The position numbers were made by a program, and so were the translations under genes. DNA of 63,524 bases, counting the filler, from Dirinaria sp. TL-2023a (taxonomy: Eukaryota): the NCBI GenBank assembly GCA_051941275.1. It is 7 parts of 7 records of this genome, joined end to end, with 100 filler letters (N's around TTAATTAATTAA, not from the genome) between each part and the next. Parts side by side here need not be neighbours in the genome. Positions count along the whole stretch, not along the records: positions 45,476 to 54,454 come from JAVEBF010001111.1; 6 more parts are not named here. One strand, 5' to 3'. This document shows positions 18,212 to 62,395 of the stretch, piece after piece (the first letter of the stretch is position 1; each line of letters starts with the position of its first letter). The notes under the pieces were generated by a model, which searched no databases, had not been told where the DNA came from, and saw only the letters and a list, made by a program, of their open reading frames with translations.

Positions 18212-18297
18212 CGAGAATACTTCTGTATTTTACTTTACCTTCAAGAGAAAACGTGATCCAAGATCTCATGACTCAAAAGAAAAAGCAAACGCAAATC

Positions 18298-25074: not shown

Positions 25075-26834
25075 ATGGTCCTGCTCAGCATCTGCCTCCT
25101 GTTACTGGCGGGAAGCTTCATAGCCAGCGTGCAAGGAACCGGTGACAGCCATGGCAAAGCGAAACAAGAGCCGTTGGTGGCAGCAGGAGATGAAGAAAAA
25201 TACAAAAAGGCCTGCCCAGACTACAACCACTATTCAATCTTTCCTCATCGCCCATGGAGCGAAGGCCCTCTAAAACTGCCCTATCAACGCCCCTCTACCC
25301 ATTGCCGGACATTCCATTCGCCGCTCGTCGAGAAAGTTATTGAAGACATTACCTCGCGCATGAGAGACAAAGACCTCGCCCGCCTCTTCGAGAACGCTTT
25401 TCCCAACACCCTTGACACTACCATAAGGTGGCACGACGAGGGCACCGGCAAGAAAAAGCTTAAGCATGGGCAAGAAGCTTGGGGACAATGGGACCGCGTG
25501 CAAACTTTCGTCGTGACGGGCGATATCAACGCTGAATGGCTGCGGGACTCTACAAACCAGCTCTTGCAATATCAAGGGCTGGCGAAGAAAGAGAAGAAGC
25601 TGGAGAACCTCATATTGGGCGCCATAAACACCCAAGCCGAGTTTGTGATCGAATCACCCTACTGCAACGCCTTCCAGCCTCCTCCCCCCTCCCATCAACC
25701 CGCTGTGGGTAACGGCCAAAACGACCACGTCCACCCCGCCTACGAGCCCGTGCGTGTTTTCGAGTGCAAGTGGGAAATCGATAGCCTTGCGAATTTCCTG
25801 GCCCTCGGGAACCAGTTCCACGCCAGCACAGGCTCCAAGGCCTTCCTCCACGATCGCTATTTCCTCGCTCTAGAAACCGTCCTCGGCGTCCTCGACCAGC
25901 AAGCCAAACCAACGTTCGATCCCGCGACGGGCAAATTCCAGAAGAACGACTATACCTTCCGCCGCACGACCAACTCTGCGACCGAAACCCTCAATCTCGG
26001 CGGGGTAGGGAATCCTCTTGCAGCGGGGACGGGGCTAGTCCGGTCGGCTTTCCGTCCCAGCGACGATGCCACGATCCTGCAGTTCCTCATCCCGTCCAAT
26101 GCGCAGCTCTCTGTCGAGCTCAAACGCACAGCCGCCATCCTGCGCTCCGCAGGGAAAGCGCAGCTGGCGAAAGACTTCGAAGGGGCCGGCGAACGGATCG
26201 AAGCCGGGATCTGGGAGCACGGCGTGTTCACCCACAAGAAATACGGAGAGGTATTCGCCTTCGAAGTCGACGGCTACGGGTCGGCGATCATGATGGACGA
26301 CGCCAACATCCCGTCCCTGCTGGCCTTGCCGCTGCTCGGTTTCTGCAAAGCGAGCAACAAGATCTATCAGAACACGCGCACGATGGTGCTGGAAAAGGCG
26401 GGGAACCCGTACTATTTGACGGGGAGGGCGTTTGACGGGATCGGCGGGCCGCATATCGGCCTGCAGCACGTGTGGCCGATGAGTCGGCTGGTGCAAGCGA
26501 TGACGAGCAGCGACGATCAGGAAATCGTAGAGGCGCTGAACGCGGTGAAGGCGACCAGTAAACTGGGGCTGGTGCACGAGAGTATTAATGTGGAGCGGGT
26601 CACGGATTATACAAGTGAGTCGGCACCAAACATTTCCTTTTTCTCATTACTTTTCATTTTTGCTTTTCACGATTCCCAAGGACTGGACACTGATATCTTC
26701 TGGAATAATATGCAGGGAGTTGGTTCGCGTGGGCGAATTCGGTCTTCGCCCAGACGATCTTGGACGTGGCGCGGCGCAAACCGGAGCTCTTGTTTGGCAA
26801 AGGCGCGGAGCCGTATCGGATCGAGGATATATGA
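25075..26834 (+). CDS. Secreted glycoside hydrolase family 125 (DUF1237, alpha-mannosidase-like)
   Basis: Signal peptide; LFENAFPNTLDTT, TGDINAEWLRDS, FECKWEIDSL, SAFRPSDDA, FEVDGYG..MDDANIPSLL, GIGGPH; after a 3' intron YT-RSWFAWANSVFAQTIL...EDI*. Confidence 0.92.
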
Positions 26835-26967
26835 TGGGGATTGGCATAGCTTACCTGACTTAAGTTATGATCTCTGAACTTTTAATAATATCTTATTCGC
26901 TTAATTGTCTCGCGCGCGTAGATCATTTCCTCAGAAATTCGATTGTTTTATGGCATATATACATTAC

Positions 26968-27208: not shown

Positions 27209-27308
27209 NNNNNNNNNNNNNNNNNNNNNNNNNNNNNNNNNNNNNNNNNNNNTTAATTAATTAANNNNNNNNNNNNNNNNNNNNNNNNNNNNNNNNNNNN
27301 NNNNNNNN
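27209..27308. other. Artificial contig spacer
   Basis: N44-TTAATTAATTAA-N44. Confidence 0.99.
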
Positions 27309-33800: not shown

Positions 33801-35254
33801 AGCCCTCTATCTCAACTAGTAAGGCTGAAATAAGCAAGTCTGTCCTCTCGGTCACACTGCCTAATGGAAGCATTGTGACATCCACAGCAGCAGTCAACAA
33901 GCCTAAAGCAAGCAGGTCTATCAGCTCAGTCACACTGCCTAATGGTAGTGAAGTGATTTCCACTATTTCGCCGAAGCCTGAAGCAAGCAAGTCTGTCAGC
34001 TCAGTCACATTGCCCAACGGCAGCGTAGTGGCTTCTACCGTCTCTGCCAGCAAGCCTGAAGCAAGCACATCGGCCATCTCGGTCGCGCCACCTAATGGAA
34101 GCGTTGGAGCATCTACGGCAGTCGATACCAAGCCTGAAGCAGGCAAGTCTGTCAGCTCAGTCACATTGCCCAACGGAAGCGTTGTTCTGTCTACGAAAGC
34201 TGTTAGCAATCCTGAAGCAAGCACGACTGTAATTTCACTTACCCTATCCAATGGGAGCATCAGTAGGGTCATCGTTCCTGTCAGCTCCTCTGCTACTCGT
34301 GGCTCTGCTGTCAATATTCCGACATATAGCGTACTGCAGTCGTTTTCACAAATACACGTCATTACTTGTTCTAGTGTTCCTGCGCCCTCGGGTATTTCGA
34401 TAGCCTTTCCTGGTGCCTCGCTCCTAAGCACAGCGCTCAGCGGGTCGACCCTTGATTCTCTATCGGCTCACGTATCAACTCTGAGGTCTTCTAAAGGCAA
34501 CGCTGGTGAGGTCAAGACGTCGAGTCTTGGCAGATCCAGTCACTCTATCAATGGCGTGTCTCCGTTAGCCAGCATTAGCAACGTCCCAAATACGCCGCCT
34601 GCCGGGTCCCCTAGCACAAATACGTCGCCCAATGGAGCTATCACGACACCGGTTAATACCTCGCCCGGAGTCACCTTGTCGCCTTCCACAGGAGCAGACT
34701 CGAGTCTTCTGTCACCTGCATCTAGCGGAAGTTTAGATAGTCAAAACTCACATACAGGTGGCGCTGTCACGCCAGCAGATACTTCTAAGAACCGAGATTT
34801 GACAGCTGTGGGTAGCGAGACGCCTGGGCTTACGAGTTCTCCAACGGGACCATCTTCAAGCACCAGCTCTGCAGCTATCTTACCTCCAGGTCCGCTTGTC
34901 GGCGGCTCGAAGAGTGAGACATCACCACCTTCATCTCCTGCCAAATCTAGTGGTGATACTCCTGGCGGATCAACTCCTGGTCTCACTTCCACCAGTGAAA
35001 CGGAGGTTCCTAAACCACTACCAGGAGTTCCACAGAGCGAGACGACCGTCAATCCGGCATTGACACCTTCAGCTGGAGTGGTGCCTTTACCGACCGGCTT
35101 GATACCCCTAGCAGGGAATGGCGGAGACAGCAATATTACTGTGAAAGTGAACCCAACAGCAATGCCCATCATGTTCGAGGGTTCCGGTTTCAAGCACGCA
35201 TTCGGATACGTTGTTGGACTTGTCAGCGTTATTGTTTTTGTCTTCTTACTATGA
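30896..35254 (+). CDS. Large mucin/adhesin-like Ser/Thr-rich GPI-anchored protein with internal repeats
   Basis: Exon 1 signal peptide MHFAKVLLAAALATPIAAIAASPR, a 33-nt exon (VDNGLWRRTGN), then a long exon from 31206 (DDKDK...) continuous with the 1284-aa ORF; GPI-type tail FEGSGFKHAFGYVVGLVSVIVFVFLL*. Confidence 0.85.
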
Positions 35255-35750: not shown

Positions 35751-36294
35751 TTATTGGCCCTCCTGCATCTGACTCTGCAATCGAAAGACCTATTCATTAT
35801 TTTCCACATATCAGTCAGTCTTTGAACTATGCCGATCCATCGAATATGGATCACGTCAGGGCAACAACGTTATTATACACACCTCCATCTTCTTCCCCTC
35901 GCTCTTCTCCTGGATCTCCTTGATCTGTTTCTCGATCCGCTTTCTGTAACCTCGCCCACACGCGCGCGCGCATCTTGCATTAGCGAATATCCCTTCCATA
36001 ATCATCTTATTAAAAAAAAAAAAAAAAAAAAATCCAATGAATGGATATATGGTGGGAGAGGAGGAAAGGGGGAGATAGGACGCGTACATTTCCTTGTCGA
36101 TAAACTCCAACCGGCCATCCACGGCCATGACCGCTTCGCCCCGCTCCTGTTTCAACAGCACCGGCCCCACGAGCTTGTAGATGTTTGAAGTGGGGGAAAG
36201 GGAAGAGAATTCTTTCGCCACGGCTTTGTTCTCTTGTTGTTGTGCTTCGAGTCTTTGACGCGCGGTTATGGAGGTTTGGAGGTCTGTAAACGGG
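35751..36294 (-). CDS. YKE2: Prefoldin subunit 6, 5' end cut by contig edge
   Basis: ARQRLEAQQQENKAVAKEF...IYKLVGPVLLKQERGEAVMAVDGRLEFIDKE-KRIEKQIKEIQEKSEGKKME-VFRLQSQMQEGQ*. Confidence 0.9.
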
Positions 36295-36394
36295 NNNNNN
36301 NNNNNNNNNNNNNNNNNNNNNNNNNNNNNNNNNNNNNNTTAATTAATTAANNNNNNNNNNNNNNNNNNNNNNNNNNNNNNNNNNNNNNNNNNNN
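36295..36394. other. Artificial contig spacer
   Basis: N44-TTAATTAATTAA-N44. Confidence 0.99.
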
Positions 36395-38142: not shown

Positions 38143-40178
38143 TGACGGCGTCAAAAAGTGCATACAACAATTCAGCTTATAATCCTCGATCTGAACGAAG
38201 ACGTCAACAGACATAACACAAGAATTCTTTTCAAATTTAAGAATGTCAGAAAGAAATGTCAACGTTTCTCAGTCGATGCAGCAGTGCGTTTCGATGTCTA
38301 TGGGAGCATGATCCCTCCTCGAAAGGCATTCTCGGTGCTGGTTTCTGCACAGAAAAAAGACTTTTGCGCATTGAATAAAAGACTGCTCAGCGCTTGATTT
38401 CTAGACCGTCTTGCTAGTGGCTTTCGCGCTGATACTTTTTGGCTACCATGGAGTACAATATCAATGGTGGCAGTAAAGCAGGTTAATATCGACATGTATC
38501 GCCTCTGGAGAGTCCTCTTCAAAATAATGTTATTTTTCCTAGCCTACTTTTCCCAGGCGAAAGTTAATCTTCCATTAGCATTATTAGGCATAAATAATTA
38601 AGAGATTATATACAATGCCTTCAGTTCCTCGCAACACTCCAAACCACGATATAGTCTGCAGCGGACAGACGTTCTACATAGTCAATTGTCCCGGTCTTCA
38701 CTCTCACAATTATCTTATCAACTCAGATCTCTGTTTCTATGGCATACCATATTCTGCATGCGCAGATCGATCTCTGAAAAACACCGCACTTAAATATCAT
38801 GCATAGTGTTCTGCGTGCTCTCAACGAGAACTCATTATTCAAAAATCTCGTCATCTCGTGTCAACTCGACGAAATATACTTTCGCGACGATTATCTTGGT
38901 ATTAGATATATCTTTCGCTAGCTAGTGAGTGAGGTGATAAATCAGTCGCTTTAATGCGCATTGATTGCTCGAGTTGATTCATCCTTGTTCCGGCCCCAGA
39001 TTTTGCAAGAATGTCGATTCTTCAGAGGTGTGAAAAAAAGGAAAACCATGATTTTGAGATCTCTCGCAAAAGAACTAAATTCAGCTGACATTGACACATA
39101 TAACGTCAACAGAACCATGACACCGGGTGGTACACTGTTAGTCAATTGATCACAGAGGTTGATTTTCTCATGTACGTGTGGAGAGTCTCGATCGACTCAC
39201 TTCATGGAGAATACCCACCTCCACGTCGTATGATCGTTGATCAATCCACCAAGTATCGAGCCTAGAATGACTGAGAAAGCATAAGCCGACGATAGAGTTG
39301 TAGATAGAGATGCCAGACGATCCTTAAAGACCATCTCAAGACTCACCACAAAGACAAGAGAATAGATTCCTTCCCCTCCGATACCTTGAAAAGCTCTCAG
39401 AGCAACGCTACGAAGTTGTTATTGCCCGAGCCTGCTATAAATTGCTGATTGCTGACGTACAGATCTGTAAGTTTCCGTGCTGCTTCACAAGCACCGGAAA
39501 AGGCTGTGAAGAGAAAGACGAAATAAGACTGAGACAAGAGACATGGCCCCCTTCCCAAAAAGAACGAAGTAATCAAGACGAGCTCCGTTGAATAGATTGA
39601 TATTTGATTCTTACATTCGACACACACAAAAAAAAAACAACCAAACGTATGATAGAAAGCCTTCGAAAAAGAAGCTGATGAGAAACCCCCAAAAGTTGCT
39701 AGCTTTTTACCGCTTCCAAACCATGAGATGAAAGAAACGTGAGCGATCGATTTGGTTTGATTTGTCTATCAGCAGTCTATCGCAGATGAATCTACTTATT
39801 CAGTACTCCGATCTTATATACAAACATTATAGCTATCAAAAACAAACGCGGCAAAGGAAAATGGAAGGAGCTGCGTCGCTGTATTTCCACAAAGGGTAGC
39901 GTTTGTATAGCTTGTCATGATCACTATGTAGCTTATCCAGCATCTTTTTCTCTTTTTTTCTGTTCCCAAAGAAAACCAATCTCAAGAAGTCGTAAGTCGT
40001 CTCTCGGCTCTACTGATGAGACTGACTTTCGCAGTCAGCCTGGCCTACCTAGGCCTGATTCAAGTTTCTATGACGTAGATACCTCCTCACTCTTTGCACG
40101 GCTTAGTTGGCGCTTCGTACTCCAAAACAAAAAAAAAAAAAAAAAAAAAAAAAAAAAGCAGCATTTTCTCAGGGAAAT

Positions 40179-45375: not shown

Positions 45376-45475
45376 NNNNNNNNNNNNNNNNNNNNNNNNN
45401 NNNNNNNNNNNNNNNNNNNTTAATTAATTAANNNNNNNNNNNNNNNNNNNNNNNNNNNNNNNNNNNNNNNNNNNN
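45376..45475. other. Artificial contig spacer
   Basis: N44-TTAATTAATTAA-N44. Confidence 0.99.
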
Positions 45476-48838: not shown

Positions 48839-50784
48839 ATGAGCGCTCCTCTTACGAACGGATCCATGAACCACAGCGCTGCGAGAAAGATCGTTTCTTA
48901 TACGACAACCGCGTTGAAGCGATGGTCATGTTATAGCCCGCGAGAGCTTCCACGTAAGCTAAGCGTGTAATGCTCCGTTCTCTGGCTAATTCCTCGAAAG
49001 CTGTATTTCAGGTGAAAGCTCTCCATGTCTACGATTTTGATAACACATGTGGGTCCCTCAAACGCTAATTGAGGAATATGTCTCTAATTGGCGGAAGTGT
49101 TCATGAGTCCTCTTCCCAACAAAAAGCTCTGGACTGGGGAGACGGTAGGCTGGCTGCAGAATCAAGATCCACTCCTCAATGGGGGCTGGTGGCACGATGA
49201 GCGCATACTGGAAGCTACAGGAGAAGGCATGGAGCAAGAAGAACGGCAAGCTTGGAAAGGTTGGTGGAACGAGAACATCGTACGGTCCTTCAGCGCACAT
49301 CATAATCCAGGACTAATATGGAGAAGGTAGACCTCGTCCGGTTGAGCATGAAACAGGATGATGCACTCACTGTACTCCTCACCGGTCGAGCGGAGCATAA
49401 CTTTACTGAAGTCATCAAAAGAATTGTCGCCAGCAAGCAATTGACGTTCGACATGATCTGTCTGAAACCTCAGGCTGGCCCGAACAATCAACGCTTCAGC
49501 TCAACCATGAAGTATAAGCAAGCTATACTGGAAGATCTGGTCCATACTTACGTAGATGCTAACGAGATTCGCGTCTATGAAGACAGACCAAGACAGTGAG
49601 ATAACCGCCCACAGACAATTACGCTCATATTAACAAGCAATAGCACCGAAGGATTCAGAGAATACTTTGAAAAGTTCAACGAGACCCTCCAGCTTTCCGC
49701 TCCTCCAAGCCGGCGTCCGATCAAAGCAGAAATCATCCAGGTTGCTGACACGGTGACCACACTTGACCCCGTGGTAGAAGTCAGCGAGGTTCAACGGATG
49801 ATCAACGCGCATAACGTTGCCATTCGTTCCGCAAATCCCAACCACCTCTTGCCGTACGAGATAAAGCGCACAGTCTTCTTTACTGGGTATCTCCTAGTAC
49901 CGAGTGACGGCGCGAAGCTCGTTGAGATATTGAAACGCTCTCGAGGTGTGACCGACAACGGCATAACATACCTAGCCAATTGCATCTTGATCTCCCCACG
50001 TCCACCGTCTGGGTCGATACTGAAAAAAGTTGGCGGCTGGGGCCAGAAGCAAAAATGGCAAGTGACCGGTATCGGCAGCTTCGAAAACAGAGACTACCAA
50101 ATCTGGGCAGCCCGGGTGGCTCCCGTCCCACCGCAGTCTTCTATCCACACCGAGACACCGATCCCCCTGGTCGTCCTAGCAATGACGAGGAACGCTCGGC
50201 CCATTGACGCTAATAAAATCCAGAGTTGGCAGTCTACGAGCCCCAATGACTCGTTCGTTTTCGAGACGTCGGTGGGCGAGAAGGTTCAATTACGTGTCGA
50301 ACCAGAGAGTGACGTCGACAGCGAGTATGAGAACGCGAACGGGAACAAAGACCCCAAGCGATCCTTCCAGAACGATAACGGTCGGGATAGATCCTATCGA
50401 CCAAACAGAGGTGGCCACGGCAATGAGGACAACCGGAGACCCAGTGGCCAAGGTGGGTATCGCGGTGGTTACCAGAACCGCGGCAGAGGAGGCGGAGGCG
50501 GAGGCGGAGGCGGGAACGGACCATCTAGCGGCCAGAACCGGGGTAGGGGCGGAGGTGGTGGCCGCAGTGGAGGGAATATGAGGGGCCGAGGAAGGGGAAA
50601 GGCGTACAGGTCACTCGATGATGTCGGGCCTGGGAACGACCGGTACATCGGACAAGGTCGAAGTCAACATCAAGCCCACCACAACGACGGGCCCGGCGGC
50701 TACGGCCACGATTACAAATCGACCTTTCCGCCTCTGGGTGGGGGAGATGGCGCAGCGGATGCGGGACTGCCCTATGGAGGGTAA
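48839..50784 (+). CDS. Swiss-Army-Knife RNA-repair-like HAD domain protein with C-terminal RGG region
   Basis: HAD motif I LHVYDFDNT-LF, GGWWHD, WWNE, VLLTGR, MICLKP, YEDRP across four introns; tail RGGYQNRGRGGGG...RGRGRG. Confidence 0.85.
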
Positions 50785-51473: not shown

Positions 51474-52393
51474 TCAATCGTCCGTCAACCGATCCAATAA
51501 ACTGATGCTCAGTATCATCACCAACAGCCCTATCGTCACTATGATGAGCAACGCGAACCCGAACCATCCCAGTATCATGGCCGTGGCGCCCACTCCCGAT
51601 TTGAGGCTGCCGTTCCCTAGATCCTGCGCTATGGTGCTGGCGCCGACGGATGCCGTGTGCTGCCACAACACGGACACCAGCACGAAGACGGACGAGATGA
51701 AGATGAGCGCCAGCGCGACTTGGGAGACTGCACGGGAGGGGAAGGGTTTGACGTCTCGCTCAGAACCCCTTTCGTCAGTCTCTTGGTGCCAGCCCGGGAA
51801 TGTGGCGAGGAGTAAGAAGGTGATAAAGGCCAGGATTATGGCGACGATGCTTGGAATGGCGTGTTAGCCAATGGTTAGGAGTGACTGGGAGCCTTAGGAC
51901 TTACATTAGGTATGGGAACACGATCGAATCTTTGAAGGTGCTGGCGACCCAGATCAGATTCAGGGGATCCTGATCCACGCTGACTTGTCCCGCCAAGCTG
52001 GATGCGTTGTTGCTGCATAGGAATGATCCGCCGTCGGGATTGATACAGAGGCCGAAATATCCCACCCGGACCTCCAATTGAGCTTGTCCCACAATATTCG
52101 CTATTGCAGTCGTCACGCCCGGGTCCACTTGTGCCGGGTCGAAGACCGGAGGGTATGATTGGTAGTAAAGTGAGATGAGGAAGATGTTGGGGATCAGTGG
52201 CGATGATGAAGAACAGCCAGCGAGGAGCAGTGAGAGGAGGATGATGGCAACGGCGATGAAGATCATGAGAACATGGTGGTACCCGAAGAAAGGGATGATT
52301 CCTGGTGCACCATTAGCGGTCTATCCTTTCTTCGCAGTGAGGCTCGAGGGATGACATACGGTTCAAGCCCAGTGCGAATCTTAAATTCGCCAT
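51474..52393 (-). CDS. FIG1: Ca2+ regulator / mating membrane-fusion protein Fig1
   Basis: LLLAGCSSSSPLIPNIFLISLYY, LEVRVGYFGLC..DGGSFLCS, DPLNLIWVASTFKD, LLATFPGWHQETD...EVKPFPSR, SVLWQHTASV; claudin-like four-TM layout; three exons. Confidence 0.9.
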
Positions 52394-53544
52394 AGTGACG
52401 GTGGTGCTGGCTTAAACCAGTTGCTAGAGGCTGCCCTCGAGCAGTCCTCCGCTTCGCCTAGTCCTTCGAAAAGGACGGATTCTGAATTGACGCTCAATCC
52501 TCGTGGCAGCTCGTGGCTATCCGGGCAATGCTTGGAGATGTTTTAGATCGGTGCGAGATGGAATGTGGAGGAAATTGGAATGCAAGATTCCAAAGAAGCG
52601 AGTGTCAATTGCGGAGGTGATAATAGAGGTGGCGATGATATTCCGAGGACTAAAAAACACTTTGTCAGAACGGATATCCTTTTTCCCTAAACTCTGCAGT
52701 AGATGATAATAATTAGAGTGTAGCTCAGCTCAGCTCAGGAAGATTTGTCCAGGTCCCCAAGACCTGACATGCGCACGACTAGTAAGAGAGACGTCTCGTA
52801 GAAATCCATGGAGGCTGGTGCGCTGAAATTAGGCTGGGAATAAGCCGTTGGCATCCCAACCTCCCTCTTTTCGCCTGACGTACATATTTACGGGTCGGTT
52901 GCGAGGAGTAACGGGCTCGCTTAGATGCAGGGGCAACCGTTTGGCTCCCGCCGCTAATGTGGAGCCGCATCGTCTTGGCAGAGGAGGCGGTTCGAGTACC
53001 GAGACTACATTCCATTCCTGAAAACCACATCATACCTTCGAAAATGCGGGATACCTATCGTCGATGATTGCTGCCAATTATTGTATCTATGCGCAGCTTT
53101 GAATAGATAAGTCATCACTGCTATCTTCAATGACAGGCCCATCTCAATCATGTATATCCGGATCTTAGCCACCTGCTGCAATCGTGTCAAGAAATTGATG
53201 AATGTTTCGTAAAACGTAGTGACACAGCCGAAATCGCCTTGCTCGCTCCTGAGATATTTGATCTGGATCTCTAGAAAATATTCTACTCCACTCGTCGAAA
53301 GCATTGCCCAAATTCTCGCTTTTGGAACCAATCTTCCTCCCACGAGTCGGAGGACTGTGCAAGTAAGCAATCCCTTACTCCCAAGTAGTAAATACGCAAG
53401 AAAGAAGAAATTCAATCAAGATATCCCATTCGTGGTTCGCGAATACACTTCATATGGTCATTGATTGTTTAGTCTATCATAAGTAATAAATAGAAAGACA
53501 TACTGCCCCGGAGAGAAGGGAGAAGAAAAAAAAAAAGATATGTG

Positions 53545-53728
53545 CCTGCCTATAAGGATTCGAACCCTCGACCTTGTCAAGAACATTAACAACTTGCCAA
53601 AAAATGGTGCAGCCGTATCGGGTGAGGGTTAGACGATGGAATTCCAAGGCCTTTCGCGGAGTCATGCCGCTACACCACACCGTGCTACGTGGTAACCTTG
53701 AAAACCTTTGTTACAATTATAATATATA
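53545..53728 (-). ncRNA. Putative Pol III small RNA gene, copy 1 of a tandem pair (family not recognised)
   Basis: Minus strand: TATA-like element, A box TGGTGTAGCGG (53667-53677), structured core, T6 at 53599-53604, B box GGTTCGAATCC (53556-53566), second T-run. Confidence 0.6.
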
Positions 53729-53884
53729 TCCTTTTTTTTCTCTTTTCTTCATTTCAACTCTCTATGCTATTAAGCCACCACACTGCTCCATGGTAACATT
53801 ATCATTTATCTTGTATTTAATCTAGATATACTTTCGTTTCCATTTAGGTTTTAACATGCTCAAGCCAAAAATAAAAAACAAAAG

Positions 53885-54066
53885 GTGAGCCTATGAGGAT
53901 TCGAACCCTCAACCTTGCCAAAAACATTAGAGCTTGCCAAAAAATGGTGCAGCCGTATCGGGTGAGGGTTAGACGATGGAATTCCAAGGCCTTTCGCGGA
54001 GTCATGCCGCTACGCCATCACTGTACTACGTGGTAACCTTGAAAAACCTCGTTCCCAATTATAAAA
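53885..54066 (-). ncRNA. Putative Pol III small RNA gene, copy 2 of a tandem pair
   Basis: Same layout 340 bp away: A box TGGCGTAGCGG (54007-54017), core 53933-54013 identical to 53593-53673, B box at 53897-53907. Confidence 0.6.
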
Positions 54067-54454
54067 TAAATACTTTATTCCCCCCAAGTTCGGTCCCCAC
54101 TGAATTACTCACTCACTCACGCTTACTAACTTTTTCATTTTTTGAATGTATGCAGAGTTCTACAGGCTATTGCTATATAATGTACATTGACCTCCTCTGC
54201 TTTAAAACTTAATTGACAATAACAACTGTTCAGCCAGTCATCATAATATATGCCTTCTTTAGCAACTTCTACTTTCCCCTACATTCCCGCCTGCCTCTCC
54301 AGCCTTGCCCCACATATCTATCTCCGCCAGCATGCACTTCCAAGACGAATTTTTTACAAAAATCCTTCCTTCCCTTCCAACAACCGCTCTACTACTTACT
54401 TGCTGTGTACAGTATGGATAAATAAATATCCTCCCCCTTTCCATGCTATATCTC

Positions 54455-54554
54455 NNNNNNNNNNNNNNNNNNNNNNNNNNNNNNNNNNNNNNNNNNNNTT
54501 AATTAATTAANNNNNNNNNNNNNNNNNNNNNNNNNNNNNNNNNNNNNNNNNNNN
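54455..54554. other. Artificial contig spacer
   Basis: N44-TTAATTAATTAA-N44. Confidence 0.99.
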
Positions 54555-55185
54555 AAGCAGTCCCAGAAAAGCGGTCCAAGATGTGCAGTTCGAGAGGAGC
54601 GGTTTGATAAGAACGGGCCACGAGGAGCGCTTTCAGAAGAGCGGCCTCAGAAGAGCAGTGTGAGAAGAACGATGTCTATGACACTGAAGGGAGCTTTAGT
54701 TGGTTCGAAGGAATTGAGGGAAGAGGGCTTGTGGGGCGTCAAAATAAGCTCACCGATGCAATGACCGAAAAATCTTCTTTTGGAAGGACGCTTAGGCTTA
54801 GGGGGTCGCGCTGTCTGAGGGCTGGCTTGGCTGGTGGGTTGCTGCTCTGTCTCTGCTTGCACGCCCGGCCTTACTCGAGACTGGTCTGTTTGTTGGGGTG
54901 TTTCGTCCGTGTGCTGCTCTTCAGATGCTTCATGGAGTTCTCTTTCATGCTTCCCACACTCCACACGCTCTGTTTGGCATCTGCTTAGTAGCTTCAGGGG
55001 TTTAGTGATAGCTGGCCTCACTGACCGAGCTTGATCTCTTCCCTCCTCCTCTGCGCGGACAATCCGGAATCAGTCAGTTGGGTGATAGCATCTTCATATA
55101 GTAAAGCCGCGTTGATGGCTCTACGGGTCTCAGGATCGAGTACAGGCTCTCCAGCAGCTGTGTCAGTGGGATTGTTTGAGTTCAT
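54555..55185 (-). CDS. Hypothetical protein (spliced, probably 3' truncated)
   Basis: MNSNNPTDTAAGEPVLDPETRRAINAALLYEDAI... can be spliced in frame to a Q/E/P-rich exon; no recognised domain. Confidence 0.35.
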
Positions 55186-55513
55186 TGTGCCTTCACGACT
55201 GAGTGTCGTCTGTGAATCGAGGGCAGTTAACAAAGCTTGTAAGGTAAGATGGAATGTGTTGCTCTTGGATGGTTCAGTCTGGAGGAAAGTGGGAAGAAGG
55301 TGAGAAGAAAAGGGAAATGAAATGAGATGGGAAGATAGCTGCTGAGGTAGGCGCCTCTTCTCGGCGCACAAATATGCACAGACAAGGTCATTCTTATGCA
55401 GCCAGCTTCAAAAGACAATGCATTCACAGGAGCCTAGCCAGGAGATATTGTAACGTTAATGAATGGCAGGCAGGTCCTGCAATAGTTGGACCGCAAGGTA
55501 AGTAGTCCAGAGC

Positions 55514-56304
55514 TCAATCATATTTCCCATCAGTGCGGACAAGTCCGGCTTTCTCATTCTCTGCCTTGCTCTTTCTGCTCCAGTCTGGAGCCTCGTCTTT
55601 TCCATTCTCTTCTTCCTCATCTCCTTCCTCCTTGGTCTTATGCACGGTCTGAGGATCGTGCTCGGCGGGTGAATATATTGTGTAAAGAATCTGACGCAGC
55701 TCTTAGCGGAGAAGTTTTTGACGACCACGTGCAATATTGGCAGGAGGTTCTCGTCAAAAGCTTCTATGAAAGTGCCCTCTTACCAAGGGAGTTGGACCAG
55801 TGTTGACGAATTGGTGTTGGGTCCCGGCTGGTACCACCATCAGGTCTCCAGCCTTTACATCCTGATCTTTGCCATTGATCGTTGCTTTTCCTACGCCAGA
55901 CGTGAAAGTCAAGGCTTGATCCACAGTATGTACCTGAGAAACTCTCAGCAGATCGTTCTCCCTGGCCCTTATATATATATAATGCATATCGGAAGACTAA
56001 TGCTAGGAACAGGGCGACGAGATACCTCATCACCGATGTCTCCCCCCACTGGGACGGTCATTAAAACCACCTGAGAATACAATCCAGTCCATAGCACTCG
56101 CCGGAATTCCCCGGACTTTGAGGGCAAGGCATTTCCCATGTTGGGGAAGTATTGCATCTCATGTTTAGGGGGTCCCGAGGGCATCTTGGGGTCTTTGGCA
56201 AAGAAATAGGCTGAGCTGGAAAGGGGCCTTCTTCTACTGAGTCTGGCTTGGAGGGATACACGCGGGGCTCTGGGGAGAGTTCGAGGGGCCCGGAACAAGA
56301 TCAT
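55514..56304 (-). CDS. RmlC-like cupin (Cupin_2) protein with predicted mitochondrial presequence (3 exons)
   Basis: FRRVLWTGLYSQVVLMTVPVGGDIGDE-VHTVDQALTFTSG...AGDLMVVPAGTQHQFVNTG.TPL-ILYTIYSPAEH...YD*. Confidence 0.88.
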
Positions 56305-56665: not shown

Positions 56666-58234
56666 ATGTCCTCTTCCACCTGGGCCCTCAACCAGCTATC
56701 TAAGCTCATCCAACTTGATGACCAGTCCTTACAGGAAATTCTCGATTACACAAATACCCTTGACAAGACTGCTGCAGCAGAACATTTGAAAAATCTGCTT
56801 GGAGATTCGCCAAAATCCCTTGAATTTATTAGCTCTTTTAACTCACGTCGTGAGGCTCCTGGGGCTCCGAAGGTAAGTACTGAGGCAGCGAAACCGAATC
56901 GAAAGCCCAAGAAGAAGTCGGCCCCCCTCCACAACCTGCCAGCTCGGCGCATCGAGAACCATGGAAATGTCACTGGCGGATATCAGAAAAGCGCCGAAGA
57001 GGATTACGTGACTCAGTCTCGTAAGTCTCGCAAAGAGCCAGCATTAGCAAAGGCGTTGGCCCTTTCAGAGACACCTGATGCCCGCCAACTACCCGTCAAA
57101 GTGCCAGTTACGTCAACTCCATCAACCAAGCTTCCACCTTCGGCTTCCGGGCAGCTCATATCGGATTTGCCTAATGTACGAACATCTTCACACTCCCGAA
57201 ACTCTTCCAGAACCGCATCGCCCGCGGCCAAGAAAAGGATCAACGTTGCCGGAGGGCAGTCTATGCATGGAGCATCAACTACCATCCAAGACCTCGATTC
57301 CGCCATACGAGCTCTGGAGATCCAGACTAATCCTTCCATCGCCAGTGATCCTGCTAAGCGACGCTGCGACTGCCTTGCCACAAGACATCCCCTCCTCGCC
57401 GCGGCACCTAATTGCCTAAATTGTGGTAAGATTATCTGCGTCAAGGAGGGCATCGGCCCGTGTACTTTCTGCGGTCATGCGCTGCTGTCGCCCGAAGACA
57501 TCAATTCCATGGTTCGGTCGCTGAAAGAGGAACGCGGAAAGGAGAGGATGGATGTTAACAACAGCGCCTACCGCCGTGCCGACGTCGCTTCAACCCCCAG
57601 GCCTTTCTCGAGCACTTCACCAGATAGCGCAGATGCTACATTAGCGCAAGCTCGTCAGCATCGTGACAAGCTTCTGAACTTCCAGGCCGAAAACGCTCGC
57701 CGCACCCGCATCATCGACGAAGTCGCTGACTTTGAGACTCCGACTGCTGGGCAGAGCATGTGGAGCAGTCCCATGGAGAGGGCAGCGCAGCTGAAGAGGC
57801 AACAAAAGGTTCTCAGGGAACAGGAATGGAATGCTAAGCCAGAGTACGAGAAGCGGAAAATGGTGGTTAGTGTGGATATCAAGGGCGGCAAAGCAGTGAG
57901 GAGAATGGCAGAGATGGAGCGTCCCTCGGATGATGAGGACCTTGATGAGGGTCTAGCTTCCGTCGATGGGGCAGAAATTGAGAATTTCACTGGCACGCAA
58001 GGAGCTCTCAGTAAGAATCCTCTCATGGGCGGCTTGATCCGTCCTATGTGGAAGGGCAAAGGCAAAGACGAGGCAGGCGATGACACTGCAGACAAGGAGA
58101 ACCGAACGAAGAACATGTGGAGGCGAGTACAGGATGATCAGGATGACAATGAAGAATGGATCCTGGACGGAGGCCTCTACGGCGGTGATACTTCGGAGAG
58201 AATACTGGGCGATGAAGAGCATGCACATGGCTAG
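56666..58234 (+). CDS. RQT4: C2HC5 zinc-finger protein (TRIP4/ASC-1/Rqt4 family)
   Basis: CDCLATRHPLLAAAPNCLNCGKIICVKEGIGPCTFC; N-terminal HLKNLLGDSP..LEFISSF; ARQHRDKLLNFQAENARRTRIIDEVADF. Confidence 0.88.
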   Translation: MSSSTWALNQLSKLIQLDDQSLQEILDYTNTLDKTAAAEHLKNLLGDSPKSLEFISSFNSRREAPGAPKVSTEAAKPNRKPKKKSAPLHNLPARRIENHGNVTGGYQKSAEEDYVTQSRKSRKEPALAKALALSETPDARQLPVKVPVTSTPSTKLPPSASGQLISDLPNVRTSSHSRNSSRTASPAAKKRINVAGGQSMHGASTTIQDLDSAIRALEIQTNPSIASDPAKRRCDCLATRHPLLAAAPNCLNCGKIICVKEGIGPCTFCGHALLSPEDINSMVRSLKEERGKERMDVNNSAYRRADVASTPRPFSSTSPDSADATLAQARQHRDKLLNFQAENARRTRIIDEVADFETPTAGQSMWSSPMERAAQLKRQQKVLREQEWNAKPEYEKRKMVVSVDIKGGKAVRRMAEMERPSDDEDLDEGLASVDGAEIENFTGTQGALSKNPLMGGLIRPMWKGKGKDEAGDDTADKENRTKNMWRRVQDDQDDNEEWILDGGLYGGDTSERILGDEEHAHG

Positions 58235-60037: not shown

Positions 60038-62395
60038 ATGCCTTCCCTACGATACTCCTTCGCCGACCTCCTCGATACGCCTACACAGACTTTAGCAAAG
60101 CGAATAAAAATACCTGTAACAGCCACAAGCCCACCGGGACTGGCAGCGGCGGAACAACAGGATCCATGGACGAAGTCCGGCAAATATGCCCTTGGCTGGG
60201 TCTACTTCTCGATCATACTTCTCATCCTTACTTGTGCCATACATTGCTATCACTGGTGGACGGACAAAATCACAAGGGCGGAATATAAGGAGGAGGTTGC
60301 CAAGTCGTCGAAAACGTCGTCACCCGACCCGGATTATGAGTTGTCAAATCTACCCACCAACTGCTCGTCAAGAAAGTTTTTTCCTCGGATCGAGAACGAT
60401 TCGGTGCATTCGGTCGAAGCGGTAACTTCATTCGCATCCTTTGGCCCATTGAACAAGCTCATCGCGCTGGTGCGATGGGGCGTTTATCGACCACTGCCAG
60501 TTCTACAGATTAGGAAAAGGGCAATAGGCTCTCTTCGCATTCGCCGCAGAGAGTTCAGCTTCCCATCATTGGGAACGGTATTTATTGTCACGGCAGCTCT
60601 TGCTTTTGTCGCCTGCTATTGTTTCATACCTAACCCACTGTACTACGCTAGTATCCAGTTTGGCTCTCCGCCTGTGGCTATCCGTGCCGGGATGCTTGCA
60701 GTGGCTATGATGCCATGGATCGTGGCACTCAGCATGAAGGCGAATCTAATAACGATGCTGACGGGGATTGGCCATGAAAGACTCAACGTACTACACAGAT
60801 GGGCAGCTTACGTCTGCCTGTTCCTTAGCTTGGTGCACACTATACCTTTCTACGTCACGCCTATATGGGACCAGGGGGGCCTAGTGATTTTCAAGAGCTA
60901 TTTCAAAGGCCAGACTTACATCTACGGCACTGGTGTAGCCGCGCTTGTACCCTTGCTCGTGCTGTGCATTCATTCTCTACCAATTCTAAGGTCAAAAATG
61001 TACGAGCTCTTTGTCGCTCTGCATGTCCCCATCTCTATCGTTTACCTCGCCATGCTCTTCTGGCATTGCCACAACTACCTTACATCGTGGAATTACCTGG
61101 CTGCGACCGCCGGAATCTGGTTTGTGTCATACTGTATCCGGCTGTTTTATCTGAATTGGGCCAATCCCAGACGGATGTCATGGCTGATCGGAGAGGAGGC
61201 TGCTGTCACTATCCTTCCGGAGAATGCGGTCAAGGTCACCATTCCTACACAGGTCAAATGGAGCCCCGGTCAATACGTCTATCTTCGTATGCCCGGCATC
61301 TCCATCTTCGAGAATCACCCTTTCACCATCGCCTCTCTGTGCAGCGAAGACTTTCCCTCTGACTATGGTGAGCAGTACCGGGATATGACGCTAGTCTTCC
61401 GCCCCTTTGGCGGCTTCACTCGTAAAGTCCTGAACGCTGCCGTCGAAAAAGGGCCTTACAAAACCTACCGCGCATTCATCGATGGACCCTACGGGGGTAT
61501 GCAGCGCGACCTGGCCTCTTTTGAAACTGTGGTGCTCTTTGCTGGTGGCAGTGGCATCACGGCTATTGTATCACAACTCCTAGACCTTATCAAGAAGATG
61601 CGCGATGGAAAAGCAGTGACTAAGCAAGTGCACGTGGTTTGGGCACTGAAACGTCCCGAAACCATGGAATGGTTCAAAGAGGAACTACGCATCTGCCGCG
61701 AGTTCGCCCCACCCGAGACCGTTCACTGCCAGTTCTTCATCACAGCAGCGAAACGCCACGTGGGTCCAGTCAATGGTCTGGGCATCTGTCCTCCTTCGCC
61801 CGCTCGCATAGTCACAGATATGGTTCATGGCAAAATCAACAGCGCATTTCAAGGCGTTGCCGAGAAGCGCAACTCGGCGCTTATTCGTGAGGAAGCCGGC
61901 GGCGATATCGAAAAGGAGATGGAGCTCCGCCGCGAGAACGAGGACAATGTCTCTGCGCTACCCCAACAAACGACTCTCCGCTTCCCGCCTCCTCCCGCAA
62001 AAGCTCATACCCGAAAACCAGGCAAACTCACCATCCCTCCCCTCCACACCAATTTCCAACCGCAGAACGCGGGAAACGAAGCCGGATCGAGCTTCGACGT
62101 CGGCTTCCCTTCCACACCGACCATGCTGCAGAAGAACCTCATGCGCTTCGCCTTTCTACCTTCGGTCGCCACCAAGAAGGAGGGATGGAGGACCGAGTAC
62201 GGGCGCCCGGACATCCCCTTCATGCTGCGCGGCTTCGAGCGAGAATTTGGCAAGCGAACGTGTGTGTTTGTGTGTGGACCCCCGAGTATGAGACGAGATG
62301 TCCAAATGTGTGTGGCGGGCATGCAGAAGGCCGTGATGACGGGGGAGAAGGGCAGGGAAGAAATCTATCTGCATACTGAGAATTACGCGATATGA
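60038..62395 (+). CDS. Ferric/cupric reductase transmembrane protein (FRE/NOX superfamily)
   Basis: Heme ligands LNVLHRW...SLVHTIP and FVALH...FWHC; FAD-binding PGQYVYL...HPFTIAS; NADPH-binding FIDGPYGG, LFAGGSGIT, VFVCGP; terminal LHTENYAI. Intronless. Confidence 0.93.
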   Translation: MPSLRYSFADLLDTPTQTLAKRIKIPVTATSPPGLAAAEQQDPWTKSGKYALGWVYFSIILLILTCAIHCYHWWTDKITRAEYKEEVAKSSKTSSPDPDYELSNLPTNCSSRKFFPRIENDSVHSVEAVTSFASFGPLNKLIALVRWGVYRPLPVLQIRKRAIGSLRIRRREFSFPSLGTVFIVTAALAFVACYCFIPNPLYYASIQFGSPPVAIRAGMLAVAMMPWIVALSMKANLITMLTGIGHERLNVLHRWAAYVCLFLSLVHTIPFYVTPIWDQGGLVIFKSYFKGQTYIYGTGVAALVPLLVLCIHSLPILRSKMYELFVALHVPISIVYLAMLFWHCHNYLTSWNYLAATAGIWFVSYCIRLFYLNWANPRRMSWLIGEEAAVTILPENAVKVTIPTQVKWSPGQYVYLRMPGISIFENHPFTIASLCSEDFPSDYGEQYRDMTLVFRPFGGFTRKVLNAAVEKGPYKTYRAFIDGPYGGMQRDLASFETVVLFAGGSGITAIVSQLLDLIKKMRDGKAVTKQVHVVWALKRPETMEWFKEELRICREFAPPETVHCQFFITAAKRHVGPVNGLGICPPSPARIVTDMVHGKINSAFQGVAEKRNSALIREEAGGDIEKEMELRRENEDNVSALPQQTTLRFPPPPAKAHTRKPGKLTIPPLHTNFQPQNAGNEAGSSFDVGFPSTPTMLQKNLMRFAFLPSVATKKEGWRTEYGRPDIPFMLRGFEREFGKRTCVFVCGPPSMRRDVQMCVAGMQKAVMTGEKGREEIYLHTENYAI

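What the first reader, a model, noticed from the sequence alone, without database searches (positions are those of the whole stretch)
53545..54066. Tandem pair of unrecognised Pol III-type small RNA genes with an invariant core and a B box beyond the terminator
Seen on the minus strand, twice at a 340-bp period: TTATAATTG, then CAAGGTTACCACGTAG, A box TGGYGTAGCGG, core CATGACTCCGCGAAAGGCCTTGGAATTCCATCGTCTAACCCTCACCCGATACGGCTGCACCA, T6, then about 30 nt later the B box GGTTCGAATCC and another T-run. The 81 bp at 53593-53673 and 53933-54013 are identical, flanks carry many substitutions and the spacer is unrelated, suggesting selection on the core. The ends pair (TGGTGTAGC/GCTGCACCA; one mismatch in copy 2), enclosing a tRNA-sized 72-nt unit ending in CCA but without a cloverleaf. 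Established: TATA, internal A box and a B box downstream of the terminator is the budding-yeast U6 promoter layout, yet the U6 ACAGAGA box is absent and I do not recognise U5, SRP, 5S or RNase P motifs. Inference: a possibly undescribed 70-90-nt structured RNA family (Y/vault-like architecture) or a tRNA-derived SINE. Strongest novelty candidate in the window.
Basis: partly seen in the sequence, partly recalled or inferred. Interest (0 to 1): 0.8.

Follow-up and report, generated by a model that had tools for sequence, protein, structure and literature searches.

The report
Twin tRNA-derived Pol III-type units
Two neighbouring 210-base repeats in a lichen-forming fungus look like RNA polymerase III genes built from the remains of a tRNA gene and could make an unknown RNA of about 90 bases, but nothing yet shows that they are transcribed or occur anywhere else.

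Summary
On the minus strand two units (54079-53870 and 53737-53523) share TTATAATTG, a 16-mer, an A box, an 85-nt block with one difference (81 nt identical), T6, an exact B box 31-32 nt later and further T-runs. The 131-nt spacer and the outer flanks do not align. The identical run is more than chance: 1/85 differences inside against 32/132 outside. No Rfam family, tRNA or U6 matches. By motif reading, each unit looks like a remodelled tRNA gene. It has a D-arm/A box in front, and a variable-loop, T-arm/B box, acceptor-like part and terminator behind. About 68 nt carrying its own T6 sit where the anticodon arm begins. The signals copy the yeast SNR6 layout and predict a 90-94-nt U-tailed RNA. 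My best reading (0.4) is a pair of tRNA-gene-derived Pol III small-RNA genes with a constrained RNA body. Rivals are decaying tDNA relics with a gene-conversion tract (0.25) and a TRIMp3/Helenus-type miniature LTR element (0.15). The element's size and a purine tract fit the latter; TG..CA ends, a PBS and a TSD were not found. There is no evidence on expression, on homologues or on stable structure (z about 0). The window is from a Lecanoromycete. Moderate interest.

The parts
53870..54079 (-). Unit 2 (upstream copy on the minus strand): the whole stretch homologous to unit 1
   Evidence: Local alignment; blastn 86.6-86.9% identity over 214-217 columns
53523..53737 (-). Unit 1 (downstream copy on the minus strand): the whole stretch homologous to unit 2
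53738..53868 (-). Spacer between the units. It is not alignable to the sequence upstream of unit 2. Its match to the sequence downstream of unit 1 is borderline.
   Evidence: best local score 18 against a shuffle mean of 18.2 (110 of 200 shuffles at least as good) for the upstream flank; score 21 against 15.7 (8 of 200) for the downstream flank
53725..53756 (-). Purine-rich tract that abuts the start of unit 1. It could be promoter-flank poly(dA) or, in the TRIM reading, a polypurine tract.
   Evidence: one of 13 such tracts (at least 22 purines in 24) on this strand in 63.5 kb
53714..53722 (-). TATA-like TTATAATTG of unit 1. The predicted start site is about 53693-53690, 29-32 nt downstream.
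   Evidence: the start site is inferred from the SNR6 rule (TATA at -30)
54056..54064 (-). TATA-like TTATAATTG of unit 2. The predicted start site is about 54034-54031.
53685..53700 (-). Conserved 16-mer CAAGGTTACCACGTAG of unit 1, which spans the predicted start site
   Evidence: It is part of a 20-nt identical run, which is within what the flank divergence allows.
54026..54041 (-). The same 16-mer in unit 2
53667..53677 (-). A box TGGTGTAGCGG of unit 1 (tRNA D-arm-like)
   Evidence: The same 11 letters stand in a Neurospora crassa tRNA-Glu primer printed in PMC3547838.
54007..54017 (-). A box TGGCGTAGCGG of unit 2. It holds the only difference inside the 85-nt block.
53593..53677 (-). 85-nt near-identical block of unit 1, running from the A box through CCA and T6 to GGCAAG. 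53593-53673 is identical to unit 2. It is the predicted RNA body.
53933..54017 (-). 85-nt near-identical block of unit 2
53599..53604 (-). T6 of unit 1, the predicted Pol III terminator directly after ...GCTGCACCA
53939..53944 (-). T6 of unit 2
53575..53591 (-). Anticodon-arm-like hairpin of unit 1, TGTTA-ATGTTCT-TGACA, followed by AGGTC (variable-loop-like). The homologous stretch in unit 2 keeps only 3 of the 5 pairs.
   Evidence: My reading. ARAGORN at a lowered threshold used GTT here as anticodon in an otherwise spurious model.
53556..53566 (-). B box GGTTCGAATCC of unit 1 (T-loop-like), 32 nt after the T6
53897..53907 (-). B box of unit 2, 31 nt after the T6
53526..53536 (-). T11 of unit 1: second terminator, presumably that of the ancestral tRNA gene
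53867..53883 (-). T4-G-T6-A-T5 of unit 2: second terminator region

Best explanation
Each unit is a Pol III transcription unit that evolved from a tRNA gene.

Anatomy:
- The front of the old gene (D arm = A box) is kept.
- The back of the old gene (variable loop, T arm = B box, acceptor-like tail, T-run) is also kept.
- About 68 nt that end in ...GCTGCACCA-T6 sit between them, roughly where the anticodon arm should begin.

Inferred mechanism, step by step:
1. TFIIIC binds the downstream B box and the internal A box.
2. TFIIIB is placed on the TATA element.
3. Pol III starts about 14-17 nt upstream of the A box.
4. Pol III stops at the first T6.
5. The product is a 90-94-nt RNA with an oligo-U tail, and the tRNA-like back half serves only as DNA.

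This is how budding-yeast SNR6 is built. The RNA is not a tRNA and not U6. Its 5' A-box segment can pair with its 3' end (9 bp).

The two paralogues keep the RNA body unchanged while promoter flanks drift and everything else is unalignable. This suggests that the RNA body is under purifying selection, possibly helped by gene conversion.

Shown: the motifs, their spacing and the uneven conservation. Inferred: transcription, the ends of the RNA, selection, and any function.
For: - Motifs and spacing in both copies. They match the SNR6 layout as described in PMC13475603 and PMC5356446.
- PMC5356446 also says that TFIIIC copes with variable A-B distances and that Pol III stops at a stretch of T.
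- The exact B box occurs only here in 63.5 kb (2 matches against 0.01 expected).
- Conservation is uneven: 1/85 against 32/132 differences, p = 4e-7. In the conservative test the 81-nt run was reached in 96 of 200000 permutations.
- The identical run begins inside the A box, 4 nt from its start, and ends 6 nt past the T6. That is the predicted RNA body.
- By my count on the rows printed, 6 of 6 CpG sites inside the identical run are intact. Of 6 CpG sites outside it, 4 differ between the copies. The two that survive lie in the 16-mer and in the B box.
- The T-arm and anticodon-arm pairings decay in copy 2 (T-stem pair 50-64 A-T becomes A-C; anticodon-like stem 5 bp becomes 3 bp) while the 11-nt B box stays exact. 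That fits a B box used as DNA rather than as RNA structure (my reading).
- The spacer is not alignable to the upstream flank, and its match to the downstream flank is borderline. A young tandem duplication that merely drifts is therefore unlikely.
- No protein reading holds up. ORFs over the core on both strands have no homologues. One of the two has no Pfam match and the other only a sub-threshold one (16.6 bits against a cut-off of 27.1). A 1-nt indel puts the two copies in different frames.
Against: - No evidence of transcription could be obtained.
- No homologue was found anywhere that could be searched. No fungal genome collection was available.
- Folding energy is no better than shuffles: z = -0.14, 0.13, 0.32, 0.79.
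- With two sequences there is no covariation to test.
- Outside the core, the survival of the TATA and B box is only weakly surprising. Identical runs of 20 and 15 nt are about what 16% divergence gives.
- A short gene-conversion tract would give the same identical block without any function.
- Two repeats around a 131-nt spacer with a purine tract in front of the second repeat also fit a TRIMp3 element.
- A T6 may be a leaky terminator (recalled for S. cerevisiae; not tested here).
Confidence: 0.4

Rival explanations
1. These are tDNA relics. Two decaying copies of a disrupted tRNA gene have lost tRNA function. They may still bind TFIIIC or be weakly transcribed, as yeast ZOD1 and iYGR033C are. 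The identical 81 nt come from a recent short gene-conversion tract between neighbouring paralogues, not from selection on an RNA.
For: - The parts look tRNA-like, but no cloverleaf is found and the acceptor ends do not pair (my reading).
- Structure-keeping pairs are lost in copy 2.
- There is no folding signal.
- Outside the core, conservation is about what uniform drift at 16% gives.
- tRNA-gene relics that keep the Pol III machinery are known in yeast (PMC5356446 passages).
Against: - The spacer and the outer flanks do not align at all, while the unit flanks are about 84% identical. Plain drift after a 340-bp tandem duplication does not fit.
- The conversion tract would have to coincide with the stretch from A box to terminator.
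- All four classes of Pol III signal are intact in both copies.
Confidence: 0.25
2. The locus is a TRIMp3/Helenus-type element: one miniature, non-autonomous LTR retrotransposon of about 557 bp (54079-53523, minus strand). Its two LTRs each carry a tRNA-derived Pol III promoter. The 131-nt spacer is the internal region.
For: PMC10886601 (abstract, Results part 1 of 2, Discussion, legends and tables) describes the family:
- tRNA-like A and B boxes in both LTRs.
- Total length 311-1263 bp, LTRs 120-323 bp, internal part 85-621 bp.
- Unlikely to encode a working tRNA.

Here:
- The repeats are 210 and 215 bp and the spacer is 131 bp.
- Homology ends sharply.
- A 26-32-nt purine tract abuts the downstream repeat where a PPT would lie. 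There are 13 such tracts on that strand in 63.5 kb.
- TGGCTTGAGCATG follows the T-run of the upstream repeat, where a PBS would lie (my reading).
Against: - I found no TG...CA ends at the homology boundaries in either orientation.
- No 5-bp target-site duplication is consistent with boundaries set by the purine tract and the TGG. AGTAT and GGGG matches appear only if the boundaries are shifted freely.
- No complementarity of the PBS candidate to a tRNA could be checked, and none to the recalled initiator-tRNA anticodon region was seen.
- Unit 2 also has a purine run upstream, which suggests that the tract belongs to the repeat.
- LTRs of one insertion should diverge evenly, so the identical core still needs a second cause.
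- T6 and T11 inside the LTR would stop a Pol III genomic transcript.
- Helenus is listed only from Basidiomycota among fungi (Table 1).
- There are no other copies or solo LTRs in the window.
Confidence: 0.15
3. The conserved block works on the plus strand or as double-stranded DNA: either a short ORF or first exon (ATG at 53604 and 53944, MVQPYRVRVRRWNSKAFRGVMPL...) or a cluster of palindromic transcription-factor sites (AAGGCCTT, TGGAATTCCA, GGTTACC) for a Pol II gene.
For: - An ATG in an A-rich context opens an ORF in both copies.
- The core holds an 8-nt and a 10-nt palindrome.
Against: - The ORFs differ after residue 24 because of a 1-nt indel. They end at different places: 74 aa from the ATG in copy 1 and 31 aa in copy 2 (89 and 53 aa stop-to-stop).
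- There are no homologues and no Pfam family.
- Identity also covers 11 nt upstream of the ATG.
- No downstream exon is shared.
- An 81-nt block without a single change is unlike a cluster of short sites.
Confidence: 0.05
4. Each unit is a working tRNA gene with a long or misplaced intron.
For: - A and B boxes in the right order.
- An anticodon-arm-like hairpin in unit 1.
- ARAGORN at lowered thresholds proposes intron-bearing models.
Against: - ARAGORN at default, with or without introns, finds nothing.
- Its relaxed models differ between the copies: Asn-GTT with a 150-nt intron against Leu-CAA with a 101-nt intron. They borrow unrelated upstream sequence.
- Rfam's tRNA model gives no match even at E up to 10 on short stretches.
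- The acceptor strands do not pair.
- The supposed intron holds a T6.
Confidence: 0.02

Closest known systems
SNR6 (U6 snRNA gene) of Saccharomyces cerevisiae: promoter layout only
   Same: TATA about 30 bp upstream of the start site, A box inside the transcribed part, T-run terminator, and a B box beyond the terminator that acts as DNA (PMC13475603; PMC5356446).
   Different: - The RNA is not U6. There is no ACAGAGA and no Rfam U6 match.
- The B box lies 31-32 nt after the terminator. The much larger distance in SNR6 is recalled, not checked here.
- The terminator is T6, against T10 in SNR6.
- The B-box region still looks like a tRNA T arm.
tDNA relics ZOD1 and iYGR033C of S. cerevisiae
   Same: Derived from ancient tRNA genes, no longer tRNAs, and still occupied by the Pol III machinery and weakly transcribed (PMC5356446 passages).
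   Different: Here there is a tandem pair with a perfectly kept 81-nt body, an upstream TATA and an internal terminator. Occupancy and transcription were not tested.
TRIMp3 / Helenus (miniature LTR retrotransposons with tRNA-derived Pol III promoters in their LTRs)
   Same: Two direct repeats of about 210 bp, each with tRNA-like A and B boxes, around a short unrelated internal part. The total length is within the published range. A purine tract precedes the second repeat.
   Different: - No TG..CA ends, no clear PBS and no consistent 5-bp duplication were found.
[quoted passage not shown]
- The family is not reported from Ascomycota.
- Copy number is unknown.
BC1 RNA and other tRNA-derived Pol III small RNAs of mammals (recalled; the papers appeared only in a search listing)
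   Same: A tRNA-derived gene whose product no longer folds as a cloverleaf and is made by Pol III as a lineage-restricted small RNA.
   Different: BC1 keeps both boxes inside the RNA and arose by retroposition. Here the B box is outside the RNA, and homology includes the upstream TATA, so the duplication happened at the DNA level.

Membership tests
tRNA (Rfam RF00005; cloverleaf) | Cloverleaf detectable by a tRNA finder or covariance model | tested here: not met
   - ARAGORN found 0 genes at default and with introns.
- Rfam gave no tRNA match at gathering score or at E up to 10, also on 66- and 106-nt stretches.
- Relaxed ARAGORN models are inconsistent between the copies.
tRNA (Rfam RF00005; cloverleaf) | Paired acceptor stem between the 5' end and the stretch after the T arm | tested here: not met
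   My reading: CACGGTG against TAGGCAG in unit 1 and ACAGTGA against TAGGCTC in unit 2. At most 3 of 7 pairs form.
U6 snRNA | ACAGAGA box and a match to the U6 model | tested here: not met
   ACAGAGA is absent from 53400-54200 on both strands. There is no Rfam U6 or U6atac match.
SNR6-type Pol III promoter layout | Upstream TATA, internal A box, T-run terminator and downstream B box, in this order on one strand | tested here: met
   Coordinates, in both copies. The layout is as described.
SNR6-type Pol III promoter layout | Transcription by Pol III that depends on TFIIIC and the B box | not testable with these tools
   No read data could be used for this question. It needs ChIP, in vitro transcription or a Northern blot.
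TRIMp3 / Helenus | Two LTRs with a tRNA-like sequence (A and B boxes) and sizes in the family's range | tested here: met
   Repeats of 210 and 215 bp, internal part 131 bp, total 557 bp. Published ranges: total 311-1263 bp, LTR 120-323 bp, internal part 85-621 bp.
TRIMp3 / Helenus | Polypurine tract just upstream of the 3' LTR | tested here: inconclusive
   The purine tract 53756-53725 abuts unit 1. Its last bases align with a purine run in front of unit 2, so it may be part of the repeat.
TRIMp3 / Helenus | Primer-binding site complementary to a tRNA just after the 5' LTR | tested here: inconclusive
   TGGCTTGAGCATG follows the T-run of unit 2. No tRNA of this fungus was at hand to test complementarity (0 tRNAs in the window).
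TRIMp3 / Helenus | LTR ends TG...CA and a 5-bp target-site duplication (fungal families) | tested here: not met
   By inspection. There is no TG/CA at the homology boundaries. Flanks are AAAGT against CTTCT with boundaries set by the purine tract and the TGG. Matches (AGTAT, GGGG) appear only with freely shifted boundaries.
TRIMp3 / Helenus; SINE | Many dispersed copies in the genome | not testable with these tools
   No genome is held. There are only two copies in the 63.5-kb window.
SINE (tRNA-derived) | The copy starts at the Pol III start site, has both boxes in the tRNA-like head, a tail, and target-site duplications | tested here: not met
   Homology runs about 45 nt upstream of the predicted start site and includes the TATA. 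The boxes are 100 nt apart with a terminator between them. No flanking duplications were seen.
Y RNA / vault RNA | Match to the family models | tested here: not met
   No Rfam match at E up to 10. Resemblance is limited to size and a possible terminal stem.

The most novel reading that the evidence does not exclude
A small Pol III RNA family, so far undescribed and perhaps restricted to lichen-forming ascomycetes, born from a tRNA gene. A terminator-bearing insert turned the gene's back half into a purely extragenic B-box promoter. The result is a U6-style split promoter driving a new 90-nt RNA whose body is kept unchanged between paralogues.
Probability: 0.35. Interest if true: 0.65.

Novelty: new variant of a known kind. 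Interest (0 to 1): 0.45.

Why it matters
Outside tRNAs, 5S, U6, RNase P and SRP RNA, very few Pol III products are known in fungi. The SNR6 layout, with a B box beyond the terminator, is treated as unusual.

- If these units are transcribed, they show how a tRNA gene can be turned into a new small-RNA gene while its T arm lives on as a DNA promoter element. They would also add a lineage-specific Pol III RNA in a group (Lecanoromycetes) whose non-coding RNAs are almost unstudied.
- If the locus instead proves to be a TRIMp3 element, it would extend that class to Ascomycota.
- If it is a relic, it warns against reading Pol III-like signals as genes.

Tried and rejected
**Known families**
- Rfam at gathering score on the whole window found 0 matches.
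- At E up to 10 on 53300-54300 it gave only three chance-level matches: STnc230, mir-592 and CrcZ, at 10-20 bits against cut-offs of 50-95.
- On 53535-53600 it gave only a 15-nt B-box look-alike in a plastid 3'UTR model, 9.8 bits. On 53595-53700 it gave none.

**tRNA finders**
- ARAGORN found none. Its relaxed models were judged spurious.

**Whole genome**
- None is held.

**Sequencing runs**
- None was listed and no RNA holder was listed. Read laying could therefore not be used.

**Earlier findings of the scan**
- None by place, by sequence or by words.

**Metagenome contigs**
- One scan with a 20-mer of the core gave 2 loci, both chance matches. One was a GC-rich coding-like stretch and one an AT-rich stretch. 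Neither had any other part of the unit.

**Prokaryotic genome contigs and viral contigs**
- There were 0 matches with a 21-mer, a 20-mer and an A-box...B-box gapped pattern. These collections hold no fungal genomes, so the blanks say little.

**Protein route to homologous DNA**
- Translations of the ORFs over the core on both strands found no protein. The queries did not even find themselves, so such small ORFs are not in that collection.
- Pfam gave nothing for the plus-strand ORF. For the minus-strand ORF it gave a sub-threshold DUF3493 match at 16.6 bits against a cut-off of 27.1.

**Papers**
- No paper holds any of six 16-18-mers of the core.
- A search for lichen, small RNA, Pol III and tRNA-like brought nothing on lichens. 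It did bring the Helenus paper.

**Considered and dropped**
- C/D and H/ACA snoRNA: the only C-box-like GUGAUGG lies in the variable leader of copy 2, and there is no D box.
- Hammerhead-like CGAAA: no Rfam match.
- Telomerase template: CUAACCCU is 8 nt only, and the resemblance is recalled.
- Selenocysteine tRNA: not expected in Ascomycota (recalled), and no Rfam match.
- Assembly artefact: the two copies have different flanks and 16 differences.
- MITE: the 27-nt inverted repeat around unit 1 (74% complementary) is purine against pyrimidine low complexity.
Full report
**What is there.** Read on the minus strand, the region holds two units with the same order of parts.
- TTATAATTG: 53722-53714 and 54064-54056.
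- CAAGGTTACCACGTAG: 53700-53685 and 54041-54026.
- A box TGGYGTAGCGG: 53677-53667 and 54017-54007.
- A core ending in GCTGCACCA, then T6: 53604-53599 and 53944-53939.
- Exact B box GGTTCGAATCC, 32 and 31 nt after the T6: 53566-53556 and 53907-53897.
- Further T-runs: T11 at 53536-53526; T4-G-T6-A-T5 at 53883-53867.

The repeat finder reports an 85-nt pair at 99% identity, spaced 340 nt. A local alignment bounds the homologous units at 54079-53870 and 53737-53523 (blastn about 87% identity). No other copy is in the window, even at 3 mismatches in a 30-mer or by sensitive blastn.

**Is it more than chance?** Yes.
- Inside the 85-nt block there is one difference. In the remaining 132 aligned columns there are 32 (Fisher p = 4e-7). 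No permutation of 100000 gave an 81-nt identical run.
- I then kept only the securely aligned stretch from TATA to TAGGC: 177 columns with 16 differences (11 transitions, 2 transversions, 3 indel columns). The 81-nt run was reached in 96 of 200000 permutations.
- The exact B box occurs only at these two places in 63.5 kb, against 0.01 expected.
- The loose A-box pattern is not rare: 14 matches against 6.0 expected.
- Outside the core the longest identical runs are 20 and 15 nt. That is about what 16% divergence gives. The survival of the TATA and B box is therefore only weak evidence of constraint on its own.

**Setting.**
- The TRIP4-like protein at 56666-58234 has its best named relatives in lichen-forming Lecanoromycetes (71% to a Heterodermia speciosa protein; many Teloschistales, Lecanorales and Umbilicariales at 58-65%). 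The window is therefore from a lichen-forming ascomycete.
- The units lie in a stretch of about 2.7 kb without a recognisable gene. On one side is a Fig1/SUR7-like ORF (51904-52320, minus strand). On the other are an ORF at 55021-55407 and a cupin gene (55757-55996, minus strand).
- The paired 44-nt N runs near 54455-54554 recur about every 9.08 kb through the window. I take them as masking, not as an assembly gap.

**What it is not.**
- Not a tRNA. ARAGORN finds nothing at default, with or without introns. At lowered thresholds it gives different, far-fetched models for the two copies (Asn-GTT with a 150-nt intron; Leu-CAA with a 101-nt intron) that borrow unrelated upstream sequence.
- No Rfam family matches at gathering score or at E up to 10, even on short stretches.
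- Not U6. ACAGAGA is absent.
- Not visibly structured. RNAfold z-scores against dinucleotide shuffles are -0.14, 0.13, 0.32 and 0.79. In the predicted 90/91-nt transcripts it lies 0.9 and 0.1 kcal/mol above the minimum. It is possible, not demonstrated.
- Not convincingly coding. ORFs cross the core on both strands, but a 1-nt indel shifts the frame between the copies. Neither translation has a homologue. One has no Pfam match and the other only a sub-threshold one.

**What it looks like: a remodelled tRNA gene.** This paragraph is my reading of the letters, not a model hit.
- The A box is a tRNA D-arm. The same TGGTGTAGCGG stands in a Neurospora crassa tRNA-Glu primer printed in PMC3547838 (passages).
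- Behind the T6, unit 1 reads TGTTA-ATGTTCT-TGACA (a 5-bp stem with a 7-nt loop), then AGGTC, then GAGGG-TTCGAAT-CCTTA, then TAGGCAG-G, then a T-run after a few more bases. That is the order anticodon arm, variable loop, T arm, acceptor strand, terminator.
- The acceptor strands do not pair.
- In unit 2 the anticodon-like stem keeps 3 of 5 pairs and the T stem loses one pair, while the 11-nt B box stays exact.
- About 68 nt, ending in ...GCTGCACCA-T6-GGCAAGT, sit between the D-arm part and the anticodon-like arm.
- Rfam's tRNA model does not score either half, so the derivation is an inference.

**Most likely mechanism (confidence 0.4).** The signals reproduce the layout of yeast SNR6. [quoted passage not shown] The same review states that TFIIIC copes with variable A-B distances and that Pol III stops at a stretch of T.
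- By these rules, TFIIIC would bind the B box and A box and TFIIIB would bind the TATA.
- Pol III would start near 53693-53690 and 54034-54031, 14-17 nt before the A box, and stop at the T6.
- The product would be a U-tailed RNA of 90-94 nt. The tRNA-like back half would serve only as DNA.

The pattern of conservation fits this reading.
- The identical run begins inside the A box, 4 nt from its start, and ends 6 nt past the T6.
- All 6 CpG sites in the identical run are intact. Of 6 CpG sites elsewhere in the unit, 4 differ between the copies. The two that survive lie in the 16-mer and the B box (my count on the rows printed).

All steps from factor binding onward are inferred.

**Why a simple young duplication does not fit.**
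- The spacer (53738-53868) does not align with the sequence upstream of unit 2: score 18 against a shuffle mean of 18.2, with 110 of 200 shuffles at least as good.
- It aligns only marginally, through pyrimidine-rich low complexity, with the sequence downstream of unit 1: score 21 against 15.7, with 8 of 200 as good.
- At the 16% divergence of the unit flanks, a duplicated spacer would still align.
- So there are two possibilities. Either the pair is old and the whole 210-bp unit is constrained, with the core most strongly. Or the units are discrete repeats by origin.

**Rival 1 (0.25): relics plus gene conversion.** Yeast has tRNA-gene relics that still hold the Pol III machinery (ZOD1 and iYGR033C; PMC5356446). 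A short conversion tract between neighbours 340 nt apart could give the identical block without any function. With two sequences I cannot separate this from selection.

**Rival 2 (0.15): a TRIMp3/Helenus element.** PMC10886601 describes miniature LTR retrotransposons of 311-1263 bp whose two LTRs carry tRNA-like A and B boxes. I read its abstract, part 1 of 2 of the Results, the Discussion, the legends and the tables. These elements have a PBS and a PPT between the LTRs and 5-bp duplications in fungi. Among fungi they are listed only from Basidiomycota.

In favour:
- The sizes fit: 557 bp in all, repeats of 210 and 215 bp, internal part 131 bp.
- A purine tract (53756-53725) abuts unit 1. It is one of 13 such tracts on that strand in 63.5 kb.
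- A TGG-led 13-mer follows unit 2.

Against:
- I found no TG..CA ends.
- No duplication is consistent with those boundaries.
- No tRNA of this fungus was at hand to test the PBS.
- The start of the repeat aligns into the purine tract.
- An even LTR divergence would still leave the identical core unexplained.

**Lesser rivals.** A plus-strand ORF or a cluster of factor sites gets 0.05. A working intron-bearing tRNA gets 0.02.

**What could not be done.**
- No genome of this fungus is held.
- The single metagenome scan gave two chance matches.
- The other collections hold no fungi.
- Copy number, orthologues, covariation and expression are all open.

**Verdict.**
- The Pol III reading is reasonable and is now better anchored, as a remodelled tRNA gene with an SNR6-type layout.
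- 'Structured Y/vault-like RNA' is unsupported.
- Two ordinary explanations remain alive.
- If the gene reading is true, this is a new variant of a known kind: a tRNA-derived Pol III small-RNA gene with a U6-style split promoter.
- Interest is 0.45.

Noticed in passing
window 9010-9109, 18112-18211, 27209-27308, 36295-36394, 45376-45475, 54455-54554: Pairs of 44-nt N runs recur about every 9.08 kb. The regular spacing suggests deliberate masking rather than assembly gaps. The last pair lies about 375 nt upstream of unit 2.
   Followed up: partly
window 53620-53632 and 53960-53972 (minus strand): The core holds CTAACCCTCACCC. Its first 8 nt equal the start of the template motif of telomerases that make TTAGGG repeats (recalled). 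The match stops after 8 nt, so it is most likely chance.
   Followed up: no
window 53515-53541 and 53724-53750: Unit 1 is bracketed by a 27-nt inverted repeat, 74% complementary. It is a purine tract upstream and its pyrimidine mirror downstream. This is low complexity and could be chance, promoter/terminator flanks or element ends.
   Followed up: partly
window 31569-31579 (minus strand) and 12 other sites: The loose A-box pattern TRGYNNARYGG is about twice as frequent as in shuffles: 14 matches against 6.0, a count no shuffle of 100 reached. TAGTGTAGCGG at 31569-31579 is close to the units' A box. No B box lies near any of these sites.
   Followed up: no
window 18293-18362; 36009-36032; 40123-40163: A long (GAA)n microsatellite and two long poly(A) runs.
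   Followed up: no
window 294-1709 (minus), 12285-13574, 32354-35254, 49798-50784: Four long ORFs (328-966 aa) without any Pfam family at E up to 0.001. They may be lineage-specific proteins of lichen fungi or intron-broken genes.
   Followed up: no
window 21028-23196 (minus), 25075-26877, 51904-52320 (minus), 55757-55996 (minus), 56666-58234, 60038-62395: Ordinary fungal genes around the locus: ubiquitin-activating E1 (a partial ORF, so introns are likely), GH125 alpha-mannosidase, a Fig1/SUR7-like membrane protein, a cupin, a TRIP4/C2HC5 zinc-finger protein and a ferric reductase.
   Followed up: partly
window 53920-53924 (minus strand): Unit 2 has an extra T5 between its T6 and its B box, where unit 1 reads TTCTT. 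TTTTTGGCAAG therefore occurs twice in unit 2, 20 nt apart.
   Followed up: no
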